A stretch of DNA of 64,000 bases from a virus, in the UHGV virus genome UHGV-1430452; one strand, 5' to 3'. Shown piece by piece: positions 3,358-25,657 of this stretch. Below the pieces are notes generated by a model that made no database searches, was not told where the DNA came from, and saw only the letters and a program-made list of their open reading frames with translations. Each line of letters begins with the position of its first letter. Within the stretch, counting starts at the first letter, position 1. The position numbers and the translations under genes were made by a program.

Positions 3358-3382
3358 CATTAAAGGCGATGTTTATGTCGCG
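3358..3382 (-). promoter_or_regulatory. Instance of conserved promoter-like motif
   Basis: CATTAAAGGCGATGTTTATGTCGCG upstream of 3067..3321. Confidence 0.45.
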
Positions 3383-3384
3383 TA

Positions 3385-11373: not shown

Positions 11374-12312
11374 TCAAATCATGTTGAGAATATCCCCATC
11401 CACATTGAAATCAAGAAGAATAGTTCTCTCATAACCGTTCACGAAGTTACGATTTGCCTCGTTGTAAGTGTTATAGATTCCGAAATCTACGAAATTATCA
11501 CCTACTGGATGTTTCTCGTCATAAATCCATCCAACAATCTGACCTGCCTGTGTACGCGGGATTCCGAGCATATCATATACTTCATTCAGGAACAGATGAC
11601 CTTTCGTTTTCAACATGTCATTTGCATAACGCTGCTGATCTTTAAGGAACATTAGATTGAATTCAGGATCTTTAGTCCATCCTGTACATCCATCATCGAA
11701 GAATTTAGCATAATCGCTGTAACTGTCGAGAGTTGCTACATTTGCTGTTTTCTTAACAGTAGTTTCTGTACCATCTTCATTTACAACAGTCTCTTCGATT
11801 TCTTTTGCTTTGATGTTGTACTTCAGTTCTTTATCAAGCTCTTCACCAAATCTCTCAATAACACGACCACGATATTCCTTGAAGCCTTTGTCAATAGTTG
11901 CATAAGCGGCTGCAAGTGCTAAGTTACGTTTACGAAGAATATGATGACCACTAAGAATAGCAGCGATAGAAACTGTTCCAAGGATTACTGCTGGAGCATA
12001 AAGTTTTGCTACCTTTACGGCTGTTTGAGTATACATGATAGTTAAATCTTTCTTACCATCTTCTTCTGTGTACTCTTTACCTTCTGGAACCATATCTGGA
12101 TTTTCCATAAATTCATGAATTTTCTCGATTTTTTCTTTTGGCTCAGCGAGCACCTCATCGAGTTTAGTAGTTGCTTTACATGCCATTACAGCAGAGCCAA
12201 CTACACCAACAATACCTGCGCCAACCAAGATTTCAGGGCTATGCTTTTTAAATTTAAAACCTACACGATGGAGGCTTCTAGTTACTGTGTTCATAATTTC
12301 TAATTTTGCCAT
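11374..12312 (-). CDS. Membrane protein, paralog family member 1 (two hydrophobic helices near N-terminus)
   Basis: 312 aa; shares SPEIL-hydrophobic-VKAT N-terminus and C-terminal G..GW region with 14387..15214 and 16675..17451. Confidence 0.55.
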   Translation of the reverse strand: MAKLEIMNTVTRSLHRVGFKFKKHSPEILVGAGIVGVVGSAVMACKATTKLDEVLAEPKEKIEKIHEFMENPDMVPEGKEYTEEDGKKDLTIMYTQTAVKVAKLYAPAVILGTVSIAAILSGHHILRKRNLALAAAYATIDKGFKEYRGRVIERFGEELDKELKYNIKAKEIEETVVNEDGTETTVKKTANVATLDSYSDYAKFFDDGCTGWTKDPEFNLMFLKDQQRYANDMLKTKGHLFLNEVYDMLGIPRTQAGQIVGWIYDEKHPVGDNFVDFGIYNTYNEANRNFVNGYERTILLDFNVDGDILNMI

Positions 12313-14386: not shown

Positions 14387-15214
14387 TTAATAGTAGCTAT
14401 CGAAACCATATTCCGGAGGCATCAGATGATCAATAACAATACACGGTTCATTATCTTCCGTAATTTGAGCACTATATCTCACATCGATTTTGCCTTTATC
14501 GATTCTCCAACCGATGCTATTACCAACTTCGGTATGCTTAAGACCAATTTCGTCATAGAAATCATTCAGAGAAATATACATCTCGTTACCGTTGATCATT
14601 CTCTCATTAAGAGTAAGAACAGCATTTTTAATCTTGTCGATATCCGATCTGAAATATCTGTCGGAATGACTGTCATAACACAACGTGTTACCTTTACCTG
14701 TCATGATAATCTGAGTGTCTGCAACCGGATGTTCTTCAACTTGCTTCTTAGCGACTTTATCTCTGATGTTATTTTCCTTCTTCTCTCCGATAGTCTCTAC
14801 CACTTTCTCTCTGTAGTCAGACAGTGCTGTTGTAGATAACTGATATGCTGTTGCCAATGCTGCGTTACGTCTTACATGTACGGAATTAGCACCGATAAGA
14901 CAAGCGACTGACGCAATGCCAGTGATAGCTGCTGGAATATAAGGTTTCCAAGCTGCTTTTACTGTTTCGACAGGTGTGAGATTTAAAGCGTTTCTTTCGT
15001 CTTCTTCTGTGAAAATACCGCCTTCATGAGCTTCTTTCTCTTTAAACTTCTTCTCTTCCTCGATTAACTCCATAGCTTTTGGTGTTGCTTTTACTGCAAG
15101 CACAACAGTAGATATCATACCTGCGATACCAATGCCAGTAAGAATTTCCGGACTGCGTTTTTTCATTACATATTTTGCAGTGTTTAAAAATTTTGTTACA
15201 TTTGGTTTGTTCAT
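14387..15214 (-). CDS. Membrane protein, paralog family member 2
   Basis: 275 aa; paralog of 11374..12312 and 16675..17451. Confidence 0.55.
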   Translation of the reverse strand: MNKPNVTKFLNTAKYVMKKRSPEILTGIGIAGMISTVVLAVKATPKAMELIEEEKKFKEKEAHEGGIFTEEDERNALNLTPVETVKAAWKPYIPAAITGIASVACLIGANSVHVRRNAALATAYQLSTTALSDYREKVVETIGEKKENNIRDKVAKKQVEEHPVADTQIIMTGKGNTLCYDSHSDRYFRSDIDKIKNAVLTLNERMINGNEMYISLNDFYDEIGLKHTEVGNSIGWRIDKGKIDVRYSAQITEDNEPCIVIDHLMPPEYGFDSYY

Positions 15215-15303
15215 TTTTTATCTCCTTTCATGAACAGTTAAATTGTTTTTACCAAAAATCCCACTCGGGAAAATTTTGATCTTGAAAAAATAGAAATCGA
15301 AAA

Positions 15304-15375
15304 GAAACAGTGTAGGACTCGAACCCACAACCTACAGATATAAGTCTGTTGCTCTACCAATTGAGCTAACTGTTT
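15304..15375 (-). tRNA. Probable tRNA; anticodon region reads CUUAUA (possibly UAU, Ile/AUA) but the loop looks one nt short in my manual fold
   Basis: Acceptor stem AAACAGT/ACTGTTT, D-arm GCTC/GAGC, T-arm GTGGG-TTCGAGT-CCTAC all pair; anticodon stem ACAGA/TCTGT. Confidence 0.55.
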
Positions 15376-15709
15376 CTTCTCATAATAGCGCTTGTAAATT
15401 TCGCGAATATAGATCTTCAGAAACAAAAAAGAAGAACCCCGAAGGATTCTCCTAGACTTTCTTCTGAAGCTCAGAAACTGCTTTCTTCAACTCTTCAAAC
15501 TCCTTTTCTTTTTTCTGATCTGATAATGCACCTGCTATAGCCATAATACCTGTTACTACAACACCTGCATATTTTCCGACAGACTTCAGAAGCGGATTAT
15601 TGATAATACCTTTGAATTTCATTTTTCTCGTCTCCTTTCTTCATTCCATTAAAGGAAATGTTTTTGTCGCGATACCGGTTTCGCTATATCAAAATATCAT
15701 CGTTTATCG

Positions 15710-16478: not shown

Positions 16479-16694
16479 TTAGCGAGTGTAATGGATATGC
16501 TCATTGTTTAATTCGTCGAGATGTTTAATAAAATCTAAATATCTTTTATTTCGTCTATTCTCCACAAAGTTTATAACTAACCAAGCAATCCCTACGATAG
16601 GCAAGCCAACGAATACTAATAGAAATAGTAAGCATGTAATCATAGAAACAAGCGTATTCATAAATCTTCTCCTTTCAATACTCTTCGTAATCAA
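16479..16694 (-). CDS. small membrane protein
   Basis: 71 aa; hydrophobic CLLFLLVFVGLPIVGIAWLV. Confidence 0.4.
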   Translation of the reverse strand: MITKSIERRRFMNTLVSMITCLLFLLVFVGLPIVGIAWLVINFVENRRNKRYLDFIKHLDELNNEHIHYTR

Positions 16695-17451
16695 TGAACG
16701 GCTCTGTGAAATCTACAATATAACATTCAATACCGTCGTCCATTTCTACTTTTGTATGGTGGAAATATAGCCAACCATCCCAGTACATTTCATACATCTG
16801 AGCTGCGGACCAACCCATAAATTCACCGTAATCCTGTCGATCAATCTCTAGTAAATCGTAATAATCGTTTAAAGATGCACCACCGGATTGAGATAGCATT
16901 TTATTAATCTCATACTCTGCTCTCAATTGAGTTTCTTTCGTCACACGGTAATAACGTTTGGAATATTCATCGTAGAATAGTGTTTTGCCATCCTCGTATT
17001 CGTCGTCATATTCTTCTTTGTCTTCTTCCTCGTAATGGTCTTTTGCTACAGCAGCACGAATGAGTTTGTCTCCGTCTTCACCATATAACTTTTTAACTTT
17101 GTTTTTGTACTCTTTGTGAGTTTGGTCTAGTAAGGCATAAGCAGATGCGATGGCTGCTTGGGAATGTTTGTTTAATAGATTCGCGCCAAATATGCAAGCT
17201 AGGGTTCCTGTTCCAATCAATAAGGAAGGAATATATGTTGGTCCTGCTACTCGAATAGTCTCCCATTTTGTTAATTCATCTCCTTTCTCTTCTTCAGCTA
17301 GTTCAATAAGTTCCATTGCTTTCGGAGTAGCTTTAACCGCCATTACAGCTGTACCTACCACTCCGGCAGCTCCTAATACTGTTAATATAGTAGAGCTGTT
17401 TTTCTTTACGAATCTTTTCGAAACTGTTAGTAAGTCATTCATTTCCAGCAC
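16675..17451 (-). CDS. Membrane protein, paralog family member 3
   Basis: 258 aa; paralog of 11374..12312 and 14387..15214. Confidence 0.55.
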   Translation of the reverse strand: MLEMNDLLTVSKRFVKKNSSTILTVLGAAGVVGTAVMAVKATPKAMELIELAEEEKGDELTKWETIRVAGPTYIPSLLIGTGTLACIFGANLLNKHSQAAIASAYALLDQTHKEYKNKVKKLYGEDGDKLIRAAVAKDHYEEEDKEEYDDEYEDGKTLFYDEYSKRYYRVTKETQLRAEYEINKMLSQSGGASLNDYYDLLEIDRQDYGEFMGWSAAQMYEMYWDGWLYFHHTKVEMDDGIECYIVDFTEPFIDYEEY

Positions 17452-17563
17452 GCTCCTTGGCGATAAATTTGGTAAAAATAAAAAGAGAAAGAAAAGAGTC
17501 AGCTTGTTGTGTAAACCAAGTCTAACTCAATTCTTTTTGTCATTATCCGAAATAACAATATCC

Positions 17564-17590
17564 CATAACAGGTGATGTAATTTTCGCGAA
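17564..17590 (-). promoter_or_regulatory. Instance of conserved promoter-like motif
   Basis: CATAACAGGTGATGTAATTTTCGCGAA. Confidence 0.5.
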
Positions 17591-17593
17591 TCC

Positions 17594-17824
17594 CTACTGC
17601 TCAAAAAATAAAACTACATCTACCGGATCTTTGAAGTGCTGCTCCTCCACTACTTCTTTAAATTCTTCAAATGATTCCGGTTCGTATTCTTGTAAATATA
17701 AAATCTGTTCAAGCAATCTTCCGTAAAATCCTTGAGAATTAGATAGCATTTTTACCACACCAATGACTTGTTCAACATCATAACCGTCTGCTTTCTTTTC
17801 CATAGCGTTTGCCATTTTGAACAC
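17594..17824 (-). CDS. hypothetical protein
   Basis: 76 aa; preceded by a long GC-richer leader. Confidence 0.4.
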   Translation of the reverse strand: MFKMANAMEKKADGYDVEQVIGVVKMLSNSQGFYGRLLEQILYLQEYEPESFEEFKEVVEEQHFKDPVDVVLFFEQ

Positions 17825-17993
17825 TCCTTTAATTGGTTTTTGATAAAAATAAAAAGAGAATACAATGACTTCAGGGTCGGCCCAACGAAAACCGTTGCCC
17901 GGTGGGTAGCATGTTTTATTACGTTATTACGTGCCGCTACGCCTTCGTGTCTCACCACTGGATTTCCACCAGTATCTATCCATTGCTTTCTCT

Positions 17994-18020
17994 CATAATA
18001 GGTGATGTAATTTTCGCGAA
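17994..18020 (-). promoter_or_regulatory. Instance of conserved promoter-like motif (minus-strand TTCGCGAAAATTACATCACCTATTATG)
   Basis: -10-like TATTAT and palindromic TTCGCGAA core; one of about 20 copies. Confidence 0.5.
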
Positions 18021-18346: not shown

Positions 18347-18373
18347 CATAATAGGTGATGTAATTTTCGCGAA
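18347..18373 (-). promoter_or_regulatory. Instance of conserved promoter-like motif
   Basis: Identical core CATAATAGGTGATGTAATTTTCGCGAA on the plus strand; 36 nt upstream of the ATG of 18048..18311. Confidence 0.5.
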
Positions 18374-18536: not shown

Positions 18537-18629
18537 TTTAGATTCCTCCTGTTAAGCAATTTATTATCTTTCCATAATAGGACTTGTAATTTTCGCGAAT
18601 TAAAAGAAAAGACACCGTGTTTCAGGTGC

Positions 18630-18857
18630 CTAATCCTCTGAATCAACCATTTGTTCAATTTTCAGTAATACTTTCTGATCAATTTCTCCATCCGCATTGA
18701 TATGAAATCGTATTTTACCATCCTTCATCTCAGCTTCTATCTCACTAATACGGATGTCTGGTTTGACTCCAATATTTTTGTATATAGCTCTAGATATAAG
18801 TTTGGCTACCATACCTCTCATAAATCTAGTAGATAATTTAATTTTCATTTCGTCCAT
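18630..18857 (-). CDS. hypothetical protein
   Basis: 75 aa. Confidence 0.4.
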   Translation of the reverse strand: MDEMKIKLSTRFMRGMVAKLISRAIYKNIGVKPDIRISEIEAEMKDGKIRFHINADGEIDQKVLLKIEQMVDSED

Positions 18858-18943
18858 AATTACCTCCTCCTTCTAGGTTGTTTCCTATAATAGGGGAAGT
18901 TTAAGTCGCGAAAACAAAAGAAAGAGCAGTGGGTGACACCGCT

Positions 18944-19695: not shown

Positions 19696-19791
19696 ATTAC
19701 TATTATCCTTTCTTTAACTTTAGTTATATAACTTTTGTTTAAACTCTCGCGTTAGGAAATATAAAAGAAGAAAAAAAAAGAAAAGACTATG

Positions 19792-19868
19792 GGAATAGCG
19801 CGGGATTCGAACCCACGACGTTGAGTTTCCTCTTATTCTTCCATTAGAACTAACCGTCTTAACTATTC
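19792..19868 (-). ncRNA. tRNA-like element: acceptor stem and T-arm (GGTTCGAATCC) recognisable, anticodon arm not
   Basis: GAATAGT...GTGGG-TTCGAAT-CCCGC-GCTATTC-C; I could not fold a canonical D or anticodon arm by eye. Confidence 0.35.
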
Positions 19869-19988
19869 CAGAGACTTCTTCCGATATATTGCTATACGGG
19901 AATTGTTCTCTTCTTTTCTATAATAGGAAATGTTTATTTAGCGAAAGAAAATAGCCCAGGCGTTTAACCCGAGCTAATTCTCTTAAAC

Positions 19989-20457: not shown

Positions 20458-20871
20458 TTACTTTTTTGGGAGTAACTTCTGAATGAATCCTCGACCCATT
20501 ATTGTTGTGATGGTTCCAGTCTCTTCGAATTTGATAGACTTGATTGTGCCCCAGATAGTAACCGCTGTCGGTATAACAATACCCGCTCCTGTTAAGCAAT
20601 TCTTAACAACTCGATCTTTTCGTTCATCTTTAAGCTGCTCTGCTCTTAATTCAGCATCAACATTTTGCTGATCCTTTTTAAGTTCTTGTTCAGCCTTAAT
20701 TTTCTCAAGTTCGATTGCTCGATCACATAACTTTGTCAGGCCGTCTACCGTATTTTTGTACTTATCTGTACCTACTTCAAGTTTTCCTAACTCTTCGAAT
20801 TCGTCCTGAATCTCATCTTTTAATAATGTTTCAATACTCATTTTGAACTCCTCCTTATATTCGTATTTCAT
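20458..20871 (-). CDS. hypothetical protein, coiled-coil with C-terminal hydrophobic helix
   Basis: 137 aa. Confidence 0.4.
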   Translation of the reverse strand: MKYEYKEEFKMSIETLLKDEIQDEFEELGKLEVGTDKYKNTVDGLTKLCDRAIELEKIKAEQELKKDQQNVDAELRAEQLKDERKDRVVKNCLTGAGIVIPTAVTIWGTIKSIKFEETGTITTIMGRGFIQKLLPKK

Positions 20872-20882
20872 AATAGGGAATG

Positions 20883-21092
20883 TTATTTTTGCGACAGATC
20901 TACTCTAAGCATTACGTGTTTATCTTTTCGTAGCTTATATGCCTTACCACTATCTATTTCTAAAAATAAATACGGTGCTGAGTCTGGATCTGAGCTGTCT
21001 ACTTTCAGTGTGCCGATTGGCTTTTTTACTAAGAGTGTCGTTGCCACAACTGCACCTATCAGCATACCTACTAATAAAAATAAAAGTTCCAC
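20883..21092 (-). CDS. small membrane protein; start reassigned to GTG preceded by RBS AGGAGG
   Basis: Track ORF 20883..21158 begins inside a conserved intergenic motif; the downstream GTG has a strong RBS and gives a 69-aa hydrophobic protein. Confidence 0.35.
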   Translation of the reverse strand: MELLFLLVGMLIGAVVATTLLVKKPIGTLKVDSSDPDSAPYLFLEIDSGKAYKLRKDKHVMLRVDLSQK

Positions 21093-22325: not shown

Positions 22326-22353
22326 CTATAAAGGAGCGTGTAATTTTCGCGAA
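22326..22353 (-). promoter_or_regulatory. Instance of conserved promoter-like motif
   Basis: CTATAAAGGAGCGTGTAATTTTCGCGAA upstream of 22083..22298. Confidence 0.45.
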
Positions 22354-24070: not shown

Positions 24071-25657
24071 GTGGAACCAATGACAACGTTTGATATGAAC
24101 AACGCTGTAGACAATGCGTTCGGTATGGACGTATATGCTATCTATCTTCGGAAAAGTCGAGCCGATGTAGAAGCAGAAAAACTTGGAGAAGGAGAAACAC
24201 TAGCAAGGCATAGAAAGATACTAACAGAACTTGCTGCTAGAAAAGGATTGTATATCGGTAAGATTTACGAGGAAATTGTATCTGGTGAAACAATCGAAGC
24301 TAGACCTGAAATACAAAAACTGATAGAAGATTGTTATAAAGGGAAATATAGAGGAATCCTAATAGTAGAAGTTACTCGTCTATCTCGTGGTAATCAAGGA
24401 GACGCTCAAAAAATACTCGACTGTCTCAAATATTCGAATAGAAACAATGGTGTATTAGTTATCACTCCTACTAAGACTTATGACGTTGCACACAGCCAAG
24501 AAGACGAAGAATATATGGAGTTTGAATTGTTTATGTCTCGTCGAGAATATAAGATGATTCAAAAGCGTATGGATCGTGGCCGTAAACAAGCAGTCGTAGA
24601 AGGAAACTTCATGGGTAGTTACCGTCCCTATGGATATGACATCTTAAAAACCAAGACCGGACGAACACTTATACCGAATGAAGATGAAGCTCCTATCGTG
24701 AAAATGATTTACGAATGGACAGTTAACGATAATTTATCTCCTTTCAAGATAGCTGAGCGTTTAACTAATATGGGTGTTCCTACTTATTATGGTGAGAAGG
24801 ATTGGTCTAAAGAAACAGTTAAAACCATTTTGACGAATCAGACATACATGGGTAAAGTTCGTTGGAATGATCGAATGACTGTTAAGACTATGGTCGACGG
24901 AGAACTTAAAGCTACACGACCTCGTTCAAATCATTCCGATCACTTCATGCTATATGATGGAAAACATATGAAACACGCACTCGTCGACGAAGAAACATTC
25001 AAAGCAGCCTCCTCTCGCTTTCATAACGATAGGACAAGATCAAATCTAAAACTTGTTAATCCTCTTGCAGGACTTCTATTTTGTAAGAAATGTGGTAAAT
25101 CTATGGGTTATCAATCATATAGACATAAGAAAAACGGACCAATGGATCGATACAATCATAGACAGTCTGCTAATGGATGCAAGGTTAAGTCAGCAGTTGC
25201 TGAGGATGTTATAAAAGCTGTTATACATGCTTTGAAACTTTATATAGAAGATTTCGAATTTAAGTTAGACAACACTCCAGATGTTGACGAAAATTCAATC
25301 AATACGCAGCTCGAAGCTTTACAAAAAGAAATACGAAAATCCGAACGAAAACTTGCTAAGCTATTCGATTCTTGGGAAGATGAGAAGATAACAGATAATG
25401 AATTTGTTCAAAGGAAAGCCGTCCATAATCAGAAGATAGAAAATATAAAGAGGCAAATGGAAGAACTCGAATATTCGATACCAGAAAGAGAAGAATATGA
25501 GGATAAAATAATATTGCTGTCTGAAGCACTTGTCGCTATCACAGACGAATCGCTTGACGCAGATATTAAGAACGAGTATCTTAAAAGAATCATTGATAGA
25601 ATAGAGTTTAGTAGAGAGAATAACTCAGAGTTTATACTAGATATAGACTTATGCTAA
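24071..25657 (+). CDS. Large serine recombinase (integrase)
   Basis: 528 aa; resolvase-like N-terminus with catalytic-Ser context YLRKSRADVE; C-terminal zinc-ribbon CKKCGKS and coiled-coil; true start may be the ATG at 24080. Confidence 0.88.
   Translation: MEPMTTFDMNNAVDNAFGMDVYAIYLRKSRADVEAEKLGEGETLARHRKILTELAARKGLYIGKIYEEIVSGETIEARPEIQKLIEDCYKGKYRGILIVEVTRLSRGNQGDAQKILDCLKYSNRNNGVLVITPTKTYDVAHSQEDEEYMEFELFMSRREYKMIQKRMDRGRKQAVVEGNFMGSYRPYGYDILKTKTGRTLIPNEDEAPIVKMIYEWTVNDNLSPFKIAERLTNMGVPTYYGEKDWSKETVKTILTNQTYMGKVRWNDRMTVKTMVDGELKATRPRSNHSDHFMLYDGKHMKHALVDEETFKAASSRFHNDRTRSNLKLVNPLAGLLFCKKCGKSMGYQSYRHKKNGPMDRYNHRQSANGCKVKSAVAEDVIKAVIHALKLYIEDFEFKLDNTPDVDENSINTQLEALQKEIRKSERKLAKLFDSWEDEKITDNEFVQRKAVHNQKIENIKRQMEELEYSIPEREEYEDKIILLSEALVAITDESLDADIKNEYLKRIIDRIEFSRENNSEFILDIDLC

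What the first reader, a model, noticed from the sequence alone, without database searches (positions are those of the whole stretch)
15304..15375. Phage-encoded tRNA with an apparently short anticodon loop
Acceptor, D and T arms pair canonically, but the anticodon stem ACAGA/TCTGT encloses only CUUAUA (6 nt) in my manual fold. If the loop is really 7 nt the anticodon would most likely be UAU (Ile, AUA), which would fit the AT-rich codon usage. A genuine 6-nt loop would be unusual.
Basis: seen in the sequence. Interest (0 to 1): 0.45.

Follow-up and report, generated by a model that had tools for sequence, protein, structure and literature searches.

The report
Phage tRNA look-alike that cannot decode
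The odd tRNA is real and its 6-base anticodon loop is genuine, but it belongs to an apparently undescribed family of phage tRNA-shaped RNAs that keep the whole tRNA body and let the anticodon loop drift freely, so it is almost certainly a tRNA mimic and not a decoder.

Summary
Observation confirmed. A 72-nt tRNA lies on the MINUS strand at 15375..15304 (Rfam 62 bits). ARAGORN, Rfam and RNAfold all give a 5-bp anticodon stem (ACAGA/UCUGU) closing a 6-nt loop, CUUAUA. It is not an assembly error: two other gut-metagenome assemblies of the same phage, and a relative 80-93% identical, have the same loop.

The tRNA-Ile(UAU) reading is not supported. A covariance model found about 40 distinct homologues: in 33 of 80 related IMG/VR phage contigs, in Lachnospiraceae/Ruminococcus assemblies, in Faecalibacterium phage FP_oengus, in Lactococcus phages P092 and 1706, and probably in Gordonia phage Kenosha. 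Acceptor (usually 8 bp), D and T stems covary strongly, and the anticodon stem is kept with many different sequences. The loop is 4-11 nt, sometimes a GNRA tetraloop or a long insert, and is the fastest-evolving part.

Each copy starts 0-8 nt after a lineage-specific promoter-like motif and ends in a U-rich trailer. Some copies are stand-alone transcription units.

Best reading: a non-decoding tRNA-shaped small RNA that acts through its elbow and acceptor helix. Its actual role is unknown. I found no published description.

The parts
15303..15376 (-). tRNA-like gene. The core tRNA is 15375..15304 (A1..C73). G at 15376 (position -1) pairs with C73 at 15304 to give an 8-bp acceptor helix. No CCA is encoded.
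   Evidence: Rfam RF00005 62 bits; ARAGORN tRNA-???; RNAfold cloverleaf; family model R1 85.9 bits.
15334..15349 (-). Anticodon arm: 5-bp stem ACAGA/UCUGU and 6-nt loop CUUAUA (loop = 15344..15339). The arm is 16 nt where a canonical arm is 17 nt.
   Evidence: Identical loop in L001, L092, L093 and L094.
15381..15407 (-). Promoter-like motif TTCGCGAAATTTACAAGCGCTATTATG, ending 4 nt before the RNA. It contains the palindrome TTCGCGAA.
   Evidence: Seven copies with 3 or fewer mismatches in the window against 0 expected, all on the gene strand. The same motif lies 0-8 nt upstream of nearly every family member and in phages Kenosha, P092 and 1706. No sigma-70-type site was found on this strand. 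Its function as a promoter is inferred.
15430..15453 (-). Intrinsic-terminator-like hairpin with a U run that ends the upstream transcription unit, so the tRNA-like gene begins a new unit.
   Evidence: 10-bp stem, TTTTTG tail.
15281..15303 (-). U-rich trailer (UUUUCGAUUUCUAUUUUUU...). Its first bases can pair with the purine-rich leader GAGAA (15381..15377) and extend the acceptor helix.
   Evidence: Sequence. In nearly all members the first 12 nt of trailer are 67-92% U. The T arm plus this tail is flagged terminator-like. A role as RNase Z site or terminator is inferred.
14387..15214 (-). Downstream gene, a DUF6353 protein (phrog_2152) with two predicted transmembrane helices. It starts 88 nt after the RNA with no further promoter motif in between.
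   Evidence: A DUF6353 gene follows the RNA in 16 of 35 distinct family members.
19791..19869 (-). Second, degenerate tRNA-like element of the same family (weaker evidence). It lies behind another copy of the promoter-like motif (19945..19919).
   Evidence: R1 34 bits, E about 1e-6. 96% conserved in relative L093, with a U.G to U-A change in the acceptor helix. Fold energy alone is not significant, z = -1.0.

Best explanation
The gene encodes a non-decoding, tRNA-shaped small RNA (a tRNA mimic). It is one member of a family conserved in a lineage of siphophages of Gram-positive bacteria: gut Clostridia, Faecalibacterium, Lactococcus and probably Gordonia.

Shown: the acceptor helix, D arm, T arm and anticodon stem are maintained by selection. 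The anticodon loop is unconstrained in length and sequence, so the 6-nt loop here is genuine and tolerated because the loop is not used for reading codons.

Inferred: the RNA is transcribed from the phage's own early-region promoter, starting within a few nucleotides of the 5' end of the acceptor helix. It ends at, or is cut at, the U-rich trailer, either by termination or by RNase Z-type cleavage with RNase P trimming the short leader. That would give a stable tRNA-like RNA of about 75 nt. In most genomes the same transcript reads on into the next ORF.

Inferred and least certain: it acts through the parts that are conserved, namely the D/T-loop elbow and the acceptor helix. On that reading it engages a host factor that recognises tRNA shape and not the anticodon, either as a substrate or as a competitor/decoy. 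Candidates are RNase P or Z, the CCA-adding enzyme, an anticodon-independent synthetase such as HisRS acting through G-1:C73, or a tRNA-targeting defence enzyme.
For: 1. The loop is real: four independent assemblies agree.
2. Family: model R1 finds 42 hits (35 distinct sequences) in the loci searched, in 33 of the 80 loci anchored on DNA polymerase relatives. It also finds FP_oengus and Kenosha, P092 (two copies) and 1706, and three Lachnospiraceae/Ruminococcus contigs. Rfam's own tRNA model scores FP_oengus, P092 and 1706 above its gathering score.
3. Structure under selection: 94.8% of cells are paired, against 36-53% in slid controls. 14 of 17 pairs show changes on both sides. The covariation score is 0.555 against 0.17 or less. 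The anticodon stem is kept with many different sequences.
4. Loop not under selection for decoding: loops are 4, 5, 6, 7, 8, 9 and 11 nt. There are GNRA tetraloops (GCAA in Kenosha; GAAA in L102, L009 and the second window copy), a 29-nt insert (L009), and only about 7 of 35 arms have the canonical 17 nt. Those with 7-nt loops carry unrelated 'anticodons' (UGU, UUC, UAC, AAA), including A34 types that prokaryotes almost never use (abstract of bioRxiv 10.64898/2026.05.15.725136, listed).
5. Among close pairs, 7 of 21 substitutions fall in the loop, which is 9.5% of sites. None fall in the acceptor stem, D stem or T loop.
6. Dedicated expression signals: a terminator, then the promoter motif, then the RNA, then a U-rich trailer. 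In L008, L024, L068, Kenosha, P092 copy 2 and FP_oengus a new promoter motif follows the RNA, which makes it a stand-alone unit.
Against: There are no expression, processing or aminoacylation data. The promoter, the transcription start and the RNase P/Z steps are all inferred.

The element is absent or undetected in about 60% of polymerase-anchored relatives. It was not found in the Arthrobacter, Streptomyces, Bifidobacterium and Curtobacterium representatives tested, so it is dispensable.

Some members are badly degraded: L014 has lost the T loop, L033 has a disrupted acceptor, and 1706 has a 4-bp acceptor. That fits partial decay.

The window copy on its own is one deletion away from a perfect tRNA-Ile(UAU) in a phage rich in AUA codons.

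Kenosha's membership rests on 35 bits plus promoter context only, since Rfam and ARAGORN miss it.

The leader-trailer pairing could be a by-product of a purine-rich start region and a U-rich terminator.
Confidence: 0.78

Rival explanations
1. It is an ordinary decoding tRNA-Ile(UAU) for AUA codons. The 6-nt loop would be a one-base sequencing or assembly error in the A-rich loop (true loop CUUAUAA).
For: The body is a flawless tRNA. Adding one A would give C32 U33 UAU A37 A38. AUA is 34% of Ile codons in the phage. BLAST finds the body closest to phage tRNA-Ile and tRNA-Trp genes.
Against: The same 6-nt loop appears in four independent assemblies, including a diverged relative. The loop is not a homopolymer run. 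Homologues have loops of 4-11 nt. The discriminator is C73, and from my own knowledge bacterial tRNA-Ile has A73.
Confidence: 0.03
2. It is a functional decoder with a genuinely shortened loop, for example a tRNA that reads by doublet pairing or promotes -1 frameshifting or other recoding at specific phage sites.
For: From my own knowledge, engineered or mutant tRNAs with altered loop size can shift the reading frame. ARAGORN also finds 8-nt loops ('4-base anticodons') in homologues L019, L033 and L060, which superficially resemble +1 frameshift suppressors.
Against: Loop size and sequence are not conserved, even between near-identical phages. Members with 4-nt loops or GNRA tetraloops cannot present an anticodon. 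U33 or a purine at 37 is missing in several members, for example L017 with C37 and L052 with no U33. No recoding site was identified.
Confidence: 0.04
3. It is a decaying pseudogene: a formerly functional phage tRNA now drifting without function, seen at different stages of decay in different phages.
For: The loops look like eroded versions of UU-NNN-AA loops. A few members still have canonical 7-nt loops (L002, L059, L071). Some members have lost the T loop or acceptor pairing (L014, L033). The element is missing from most relatives.
Against: Compensatory changes maintain all four stems across phages whose polymerases are only 50-70% identical. There are no substitutions in the acceptor stem, D stem or T loop among close pairs, while the loop changes. 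The invariant elbow nucleotides are retained. The coupling to a dedicated promoter and U-rich trailer is retained across Clostridia, Lactococcus and Gordonia phages. Neutral decay would not spare everything except the loop.
Confidence: 0.1
4. It works only in cis, as a structured 5' leader of the early mRNA. It would be a 5' stabiliser, a processing 'punctuation' signal or a transcription attenuator for the downstream DUF6353 gene or other ORF, and the released RNA would have no role of its own.
For: It begins 0-8 nt from the inferred start. An ORF with an RBS follows at 20-40 nt in about three quarters of members, and 16 of 35 of those ORFs are DUF6353 genes. The leader-trailer helix plus U tract looks terminator-like. 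At the paralogous position in the window, a plain hairpin with a U-rich trailer replaces the tRNA shape.
Against: A simple hairpin would serve those purposes. That leaves unexplained why the D/T-loop elbow and the anticodon stem are preserved. In at least 5-6 genomes a new promoter separates the RNA from the next ORF, so there it cannot be that ORF's leader.
Confidence: 0.2
5. It is an attachment-site (attP) copy of a host tRNA gene used for prophage integration.
For: The window phage is temperate, with a serine recombinase at 24071-25657, and FP_oengus has a tyrosine integrase 1.5 kb from its copy. From my own knowledge, many phages integrate into tRNA genes.
Against: The gene is about 8.7 kb from the recombinase in the window. 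From my own knowledge, attP sites carry only the 3' part of a tRNA identical to the host gene, not a complete, diverging cloverleaf with its own promoter. No match to the window's arm was found in 185,579 species genomes. The actinophage relatives that carry a copy show no integrase in the region examined.
Confidence: 0.02

Closest known systems
Canonical phage-encoded elongator tRNAs (Rfam RF00005), including the phage tRNAs with anticodon-loop substitutions proposed to escape anticodon nucleases (van den Berg et al. 2023, PMC10264068)
   Same: Phage-encoded. Full cloverleaf with all tertiary-contact nucleotides. Scores well above the Rfam tRNA threshold. The anticodon loop is the part that departs from the norm.
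   Different: Those tRNAs keep a loop with a defined anticodon and are proposed to replace cleaved host tRNAs in translation. The paper's text describes loop mutations and does not contain the words deletion, insertion or decoy. Here loop length itself varies from 4 to 11 nt, the 'anticodon' is not conserved among orthologues, and several members cannot present an anticodon at all.
tRNA-like RNAs excised by RNase P and RNase Z: mammalian mascRNA (from MALAT1) and the tRNA-like parts of murine gammaherpesvirus 68 TMER transcripts (from my own knowledge)
   Same: tRNA-shaped, non-decoding RNAs embedded at the start or end of a longer transcript. They are recognised through the acceptor/T-arm/elbow, and the anticodon region is not used.
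   Different: Those are eukaryotic or herpesviral and are transcribed by Pol II or Pol III. This family is in tailed phages of Gram-positive bacteria, behind a phage-specific promoter-like motif. Its processing has not been tested.
Bacterial Y RNAs of the YrlA type, which mimic tRNA (Chen et al. 2014; Wang et al. 2018; from my own knowledge)
   Same: Bacterial or phage non-coding RNAs with a tRNA-like D/T elbow attached to a long helix formed by the RNA's ends.
   Different: In YrlA the ends lie on the anticodon-stem side in a Ro/Rsr-binding helix, and the genes sit next to rsr. Here the ends form the acceptor helix, and no family other than tRNA reached its Rfam gathering score in the window or the loci scanned. 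No rsr gene was noticed in the regions examined, though I did not search for one.
Bacterial tRNA-His (8-bp acceptor helix with G-1:C73)
   Same: The window RNA and most relatives have an eighth acceptor pair formed by G-1 and C73. From my own knowledge, C73 is otherwise typical of tRNA-His in bacteria, and HisRS relies mainly on this pair and little on the anticodon.
   Different: There is no GUG anticodon. The -1:73 pair covaries to A:U in 9 of 35 members, and 9 members have a 7-bp helix. The extra pair therefore looks structural and not a fixed identity element.
Frameshift-suppressor tRNAs with altered anticodon-loop size (for example the sufD/sufB class with 8-nt loops, and the tRNAs with enlarged loops reviewed in PMC5009743)
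   Same: An otherwise normal tRNA with a loop that is not 7 nt.
   Different: Suppressors are single mutants of a defined isoacceptor and keep a functional anticodon. Here loop size and sequence vary freely across orthologues.

Membership tests
Decoding elongator tRNA | Cloverleaf with acceptor, D and T arms and the conserved tertiary nucleotides | tested here: met
   Rfam 62 bits over model positions 1-71. U8, A14, G18, G19, G53, U54, U55, C56, A58 and C61 are present in the sequence.
Decoding elongator tRNA | 7-nt anticodon loop with U33 and a purine at position 37 | tested here: not met
   The loop is CUUAUA, 6 nt, confirmed in four assemblies.
Decoding elongator tRNA | Anticodon conserved among orthologues at the same locus | tested here: not met
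   Loops are 4-11 nt with unrelated sequences. 7 of 21 substitutions between close pairs lie in the loop.
Decoding elongator tRNA | Aminoacylation and delivery to the ribosome | not testable with these tools
   Needs acid-gel Northern blots, tRNA-seq or ribosome association assays.
tRNA-Ile(UAU) | Loop CUUAUAA with anticodon UAU, plus Ile identity elements (A73 discriminator, from my own knowledge) | tested here: not met
   One loop nucleotide is missing and the discriminator is C73.
tRNA-His | G-1:C73 extra acceptor pair | tested here: met
   G15376 pairs with C15304. Across the family, however, the pair is G:C in 23 members and A:U in 9.
tRNA-His | GUG anticodon | tested here: not met
   The loop is CUUAUA.
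Frameshift-suppressor / altered-loop decoding tRNA | Altered loop size that is conserved and presents a usable anticodon, with a matching recoding site | tested here: not met
   Loop size is not conserved, and tetraloop members exist. No recoding site was searched for exhaustively.
tRNA-like mimic processed by tRNA-maturation enzymes (mascRNA/TMER type) | Acceptor/T-arm helix and D/T elbow conserved while the anticodon is dispensable | tested here: met
   Covariation in the acceptor, D and T stems, invariant elbow nucleotides and a free loop.
tRNA-like mimic processed by tRNA-maturation enzymes (mascRNA/TMER type) | Cleavage by RNase P at the 5' end and by RNase Z at the 3' end, followed by CCA addition | not testable with these tools
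   Only indirect evidence: no encoded CCA, a U-rich trailer directly after the discriminator in nearly all members, and a leader of 0-8 nt.
Bacterial Y RNA (YrlA) / tmRNA | Match to the family covariance model or to tmRNA architecture | tested here: not met
   Only RF00005 reaches its gathering score. ARAGORN reports no tmRNA.
attP tRNA fragment | Identity to a host tRNA 3' segment, next to the integrase gene | tested here: not met
   It is a complete cloverleaf about 8.7 kb from the recombinase. The window's arm was not found in the species-genome collection.

The most novel reading that the evidence does not exclude
This is a new class of phage-encoded, promoter-coupled tRNA mimics. The RNA would be made very early, from a promoter specific to this phage lineage. 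It would use an intact tRNA elbow and acceptor helix to occupy or divert a host enzyme that reads tRNA shape, for example a tRNA-targeting defence nuclease or nucleotidyltransferase, RNase P or Z, or HisRS through G-1:C73. The fast-evolving tip of the anticodon arm would then be under diversifying selection, as a specificity or escape determinant, and not merely drifting.
Probability: 0.25. Interest if true: 0.8.

Novelty: new variant of a known kind. Interest (0 to 1): 0.62.

Why it matters
Phage tRNA genes are usually explained by codon supply or by replacement of tRNAs that host defences cleave. This family shows a third situation. A phage lineage that spans Firmicutes hosts, and probably Actinobacteria hosts, keeps a tRNA-shaped RNA whose anticodon loop is irrelevant, which implies a function based on tRNA shape alone.

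It also matters for annotation. ARAGORN labels these genes 'tRNA-???' or misses them, and the RefSeq/GenBank records examined for four cultured phages (FP_oengus, P092, 1706, Kenosha) annotate nothing at these positions. A preprint on this lineage states that its Streptomyces cluster BI phages have no predicted tRNA genes.

Three of those phages (FP_oengus, P092, 1706) have culturable hosts, so the function can be tested directly. The associated promoter-like motif is a second handle on early transcription in a lineage reported to carry a YonO/crAss-like RNA polymerase.

Tried and rejected
- Megablast of the 2.1-kb region against GenBank phages: no match.
- Exact-pattern scans of IMG/VR for the window's tRNA: the first found nothing. 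A 3'-end pattern found only L009 and, oddly, not L001, which contains the same string. I therefore did not treat pattern scans as exhaustive.
- blastn 'distant' with the tRNA plus promoter gave only generic tRNA-body similarity to tRNA-Ile and tRNA-Trp of unrelated phages. This says nothing about family membership.
- The MAFFT alignment could not align the anticodon arm because of indels. I analysed that arm sequence by sequence instead.
- A fixed tRNA-His identity was considered and downgraded because the -1:73 pair covaries to A:U.
- G3:U70 (Ala identity) is absent: that pair is A:U in 33 of 35 members.
- Y RNA and tmRNA were rejected.
- Sigma-70 promoter: the simple scan finds none on the gene strand. 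The motif's spacing (TTCGCG, 14 nt, TATTAT) and its distance to the helix (as little as 1-2 nt) do not fit a -10 hexamer, so I treat it as a lineage-specific promoter of unknown polymerase or sigma specificity.
- DUF6353 was checked for a mechanistic clue. It has no Pfam domain beyond the DUF and no relative with a solved structure. I did not predict its structure.
- Literature searches for tRNA-like RNAs in phages or actinophages, DUF6353, FP_oengus and phage 1706 found no description of this element. The library lacks most subscription journals.
- The frameshifting review had nothing specific on 6-nt loops.

Full report
**1. The observation.** The finding's coordinates hold a tRNA gene, but on the minus strand. 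Rfam's tRNA model matches 15375..15304 from end to end at 62 bits (gathering score 29), and its alignment shows one consensus position missing in the anticodon loop. ARAGORN finds the same gene (15303-15376, minus strand) and labels it 'tRNA-???' with a two-base anticodon '(ta)'. RNAfold's minimum-energy and centroid structures are the cloverleaf. They show an 8-bp acceptor helix, because G at -1 pairs with C73, normal D and T arms, and the 5-bp stem ACAGA/UCUGU closing CUUAUA; z = -3.1. Everything else about the molecule is textbook: U8, A14, G18G19, the GUUCGAGUC T loop and a 5-nt variable loop.

**2. Is the short loop an artefact?** A metagenome scan for the arm found three ENA human-gut contigs. 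Two of them (OHES01000485.1 and OHFN01000869.1) are 100% identical to the window over 3-4 kb, so they are the same phage assembled independently. The third (ORMO01000199, the same contig as IMG/VR UViG_3300045988_061906) is a relative, 80-93% identical in the flanks. Its gene has the same loop but two changes elsewhere, one of which converts a T-stem G.U pair to A-U. I could not look at reads. Even so, four concordant assemblies and a loop that is not a homopolymer run make an error very unlikely.

**3. What the window is.** It is a temperate siphovirus-type phage of about 37% GC:
- Terminase, portal, protease and a 2515-aa tape measure protein.
- A GH25-CHAP-CW_7 endolysin, which points to a Gram-positive host.
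- A serine recombinase and an HTH repressor on the plus strand at 23.4-25.7 kb.
- A leftward early/replication region containing a 1408-aa primase-polymerase and three DUF6353 (phrog_2152) membrane-protein paralogues.

The nearest cultured relative is Faecalibacterium phage FP_oengus. More distant relatives are Gordonia, Arthrobacter, Streptomyces and Lactococcus phages. A preprint already treats these as one lineage. It reports 'no predicted tRNA genes' in Streptomyces cluster BI and a putative YonO/crAss-like RNA polymerase as a signature of the lineage (10.1101/842583).

**4. The gene belongs to a family.**
- Loci fetched through the neighbouring DUF6353 gene showed homologues at the same position, with the same acceptor sequence but different anticodon regions. 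L002 has a 7-nt loop with UGU, and MT835485.1 has a 4-nt loop UUAU.
- Eighty loci anchored on polymerase relatives at 50-76% identity were scanned with ARAGORN and then with a covariance model built on the acceptor, D and T stems.
- The model gave 42 hits, 35 of them distinct sequences, in 33 of the 80 polymerase-anchored loci. Almost all lie upstream of the polymerase and on its strand.
- The model also finds unannotated copies in FP_oengus (61 bits) and Gordonia phage Kenosha (35 bits), in Lactococcus phages P092 (two copies) and 1706, and in Lachnospiraceae and Ruminococcus assemblies.
- Rfam's general tRNA model independently scores FP_oengus, P092 and 1706 above threshold. ARAGORN sees only FP_oengus, again as 'tRNA-???'.
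- There were no hits in the 12 kb upstream of the polymerase in representatives from Arthrobacter, Streptomyces, Bifidobacterium and Curtobacterium.

**5. What is conserved and what is not.**
- On the model-based alignment of 35 distinct sequences, 94.8% of cells in the acceptor, D and T stems form pairs, against 36-53% when the partners are slid. 14 of 17 pairs show changes on both sides. The covariation score is 0.555 against at most 0.17 in the slid controls and 0.24 in shuffles.
- The outermost pair (-1:73) is itself a covarying pair: G:C in 23 members and A:U in 9.
- The anticodon stem is retained with many different sequences: ACAGA/UCUGU, ACUGA/UCAGU, CGGGA/UUCCG, CCACA/UGUGG, CUACA/UGUAG, CUGGA/UCCAG, CUCGA/UCGAG and CCGC/GCGG.
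- The loop it closes is 4, 5, 6, 7, 8, 9 or 11 nt. It is a GNRA tetraloop in several members (GCAA in Kenosha; GAAA in L102, L009 and the second window copy), and L009 carries a 29-nt insert. Only about 7 of 35 arms have the canonical 17 nt.
- The few 7-nt loops carry UGU, UUC, UAC or AAA. One has C at position 37, and others lack U33.
- Among ten pairs of close relatives, 7 of 21 substitutions fall in the loop, which is 9.5% of sites. None fall in the acceptor stem, D stem or T loop (the pairs are not fully independent). For example, L059 and L071 differ in the middle 'anticodon' base, UUC against UAC.

This pattern is what a tRNA-shaped RNA that does not read codons would show. It is incompatible with a conserved isoacceptor.

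**6. Expression context.**
- Directly upstream of the window gene is TTCGCGAAATTTACAAGCGCTATTATG (15407..15381), preceded by a terminator-like hairpin at 15453..15430.
- The motif occurs seven times in the window at 3 or fewer mismatches, against 0 expected. All copies are on the gene strand between 15.4 and 22.4 kb, each before an RBS and ORF.
- The same motif ends 0-8 nt before nearly every family member. Its core (TTACA-N5-TATAATGAGA) precedes the copies in Kenosha, P092 and 1706.
- Its geometry is not that of a sigma-70 promoter, and the acceptor helix begins too close to 'TATTAT' for that hexamer to be a -10 element. I infer a lineage-specific promoter with the start at or just after the R that follows TATTAT.
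- All copies lack an encoded CCA and are followed by a U-rich trailer, 67-92% U over the first 12 nt.
- The purine-rich leader can pair with this trailer and lengthen the acceptor helix. In phage 1706 the extension is about 20 bp of specific complementarity ending in U8.
- In about three quarters of members an ORF starts 20-40 nt downstream, and it is a DUF6353 gene in 16 of 35.
- In L008, L024, L068, Kenosha, P092 copy 2 and FP_oengus a fresh promoter motif intervenes, which makes the RNA a transcription unit of its own.

**7. Interpretation.**
- Shown: the 6-nt loop is real. The gene is one of a conserved family. The tRNA body is under purifying selection and the loop is not.
- Inferred: the RNA is made from a dedicated phage promoter and is released by termination or by RNase P/Z processing. 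It acts through its elbow and acceptor helix on some host component that recognises tRNA shape.

I cannot say which component. Candidates are listed in the explanation section. The G-1:C73 pair makes anticodon-independent histidylation conceivable for the window copy, but the pair's covariation to A:U argues against a strict identity role. A purely cis role as stabiliser, attenuator or punctuation signal is a serious alternative for mechanism. It does not explain why a complete tRNA elbow is preserved or why some copies are stand-alone. Neutral decay of an old tRNA gene fits the look of the loops and the patchy distribution, but it does not fit the compensatory changes or the zero substitution count in the stems of close pairs.

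**8. Comparison with known systems and novelty.**
- The RNA passes the structural tests for a tRNA. It fails the tests for a decoder: 7-nt loop, conserved anticodon.
- It is not a Y RNA, a tmRNA or an attP fragment.
- It works most like the tRNA-like RNAs that are recognised by tRNA-maturation enzymes but never decode (mascRNA, the MHV68 TMER tRNA-like parts, the YrlA tRNA-like domain). It differs from each of these in topology, host and expression.
- The published idea closest in subject, phage tRNAs with anticodon-loop mutations that evade anticodon nucleases, concerns functional decoders (PMC10264068).
- I found no description of this family or of its promoter motif in the searchable literature. 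That library omits most subscription journals, so prior description cannot be excluded.

I rate it a new variant of a known kind (tRNA mimics) and of moderate to high interest. It turns a single oddity into a testable family that is present in cultured phages.

Noticed in passing
window 19791-19869 (-), with motif copy at 19945-19919 (-): A second, degenerate tRNA-like element behind another promoter-like motif. It has acceptor GGAAUAGU/GCUAUUCC, an extra helix GACG/CGUC, a 3-bp arm capped by GAAA, and a normal T arm. Only the family model detects it (34 bits). It is 96% conserved in relative L093, with a U.G to U-A change in the acceptor helix.
   Followed up: partly
window minus strand: 15381-15407, 17564-17590, 17994-18020, 18347-18373, 18573-18599, 20869-20895, 22327-22353; looser copies at 18886-18912, 3358-3384 and 19919-19945: Repeated promoter-like motif TTCGCGAAAWTTACA-N4-CTATTATG containing the palindrome TTCGCGAA: 7 copies against 0 expected by chance. 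Its spacing is not sigma-70-like. The same core precedes genes in Gordonia phage Kenosha and Lactococcus phages P092 and 1706, so it is conserved across host phyla. The polymerase or sigma factor that uses it is unknown.
   Followed up: partly
window 17452-17563 (-): Between a motif copy and the DUF6353 paralogue at 16675-17451 there is no tRNA-like fold, only a hairpin (GAGUUAGACUUGG...CAAGCUGACUC) followed by the same kind of U-rich trailer. In other phages the orthologue of this paralogue is the gene that follows the tRNA-like RNA. It could be a relic or a functional substitute.
   Followed up: no
window 17824-17993 (-): The motif copy at 18020-17994 is followed by about 170 nt with no convincing RBS and ORF before small GTG-start ORFs. 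This could be another non-coding transcript.
   Followed up: no
window 11374-12312, 14387-15214, 16675-17451 (all -): Three paralogues of DUF6353 (phrog_2152), a protein with two predicted transmembrane helices and a soluble C-terminal domain. It has no relative with a solved structure. FP_oengus also has three copies.
   Followed up: partly
L090 (FP_oengus NC_047916.1) 18558-18636 (+): An apparently normal tRNA-Met(CAU) (Rfam 57.8 bits, and ARAGORN) that is not annotated in the RefSeq record.
   Followed up: no
L014:14728-14813, L021:16367-16452, L029:15194-15278, L032:16983-17065: Ordinary tRNA-Leu genes (UAA or UAG anticodon, long variable arm, encoded CCA) just downstream of the polymerase in four relatives. 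They are a separate and conventional kind of phage tRNA in the same lineage.
   Followed up: no
L009:10975-11067; L014:2980-3076; L103:6512-6603: Family members with large insertions: 29 nt in the anticodon arm, a rearranged 97-nt version lacking a T loop, and 22 nt in the D region. I did not check whether these are introns, decay or functional expansions.
   Followed up: no
Viral-contig scan: An exact-pattern scan returned L009 but not the IMG/VR contig of L001, which contains the same 22-mer. Collection scans may therefore not be exhaustive.
   Followed up: no
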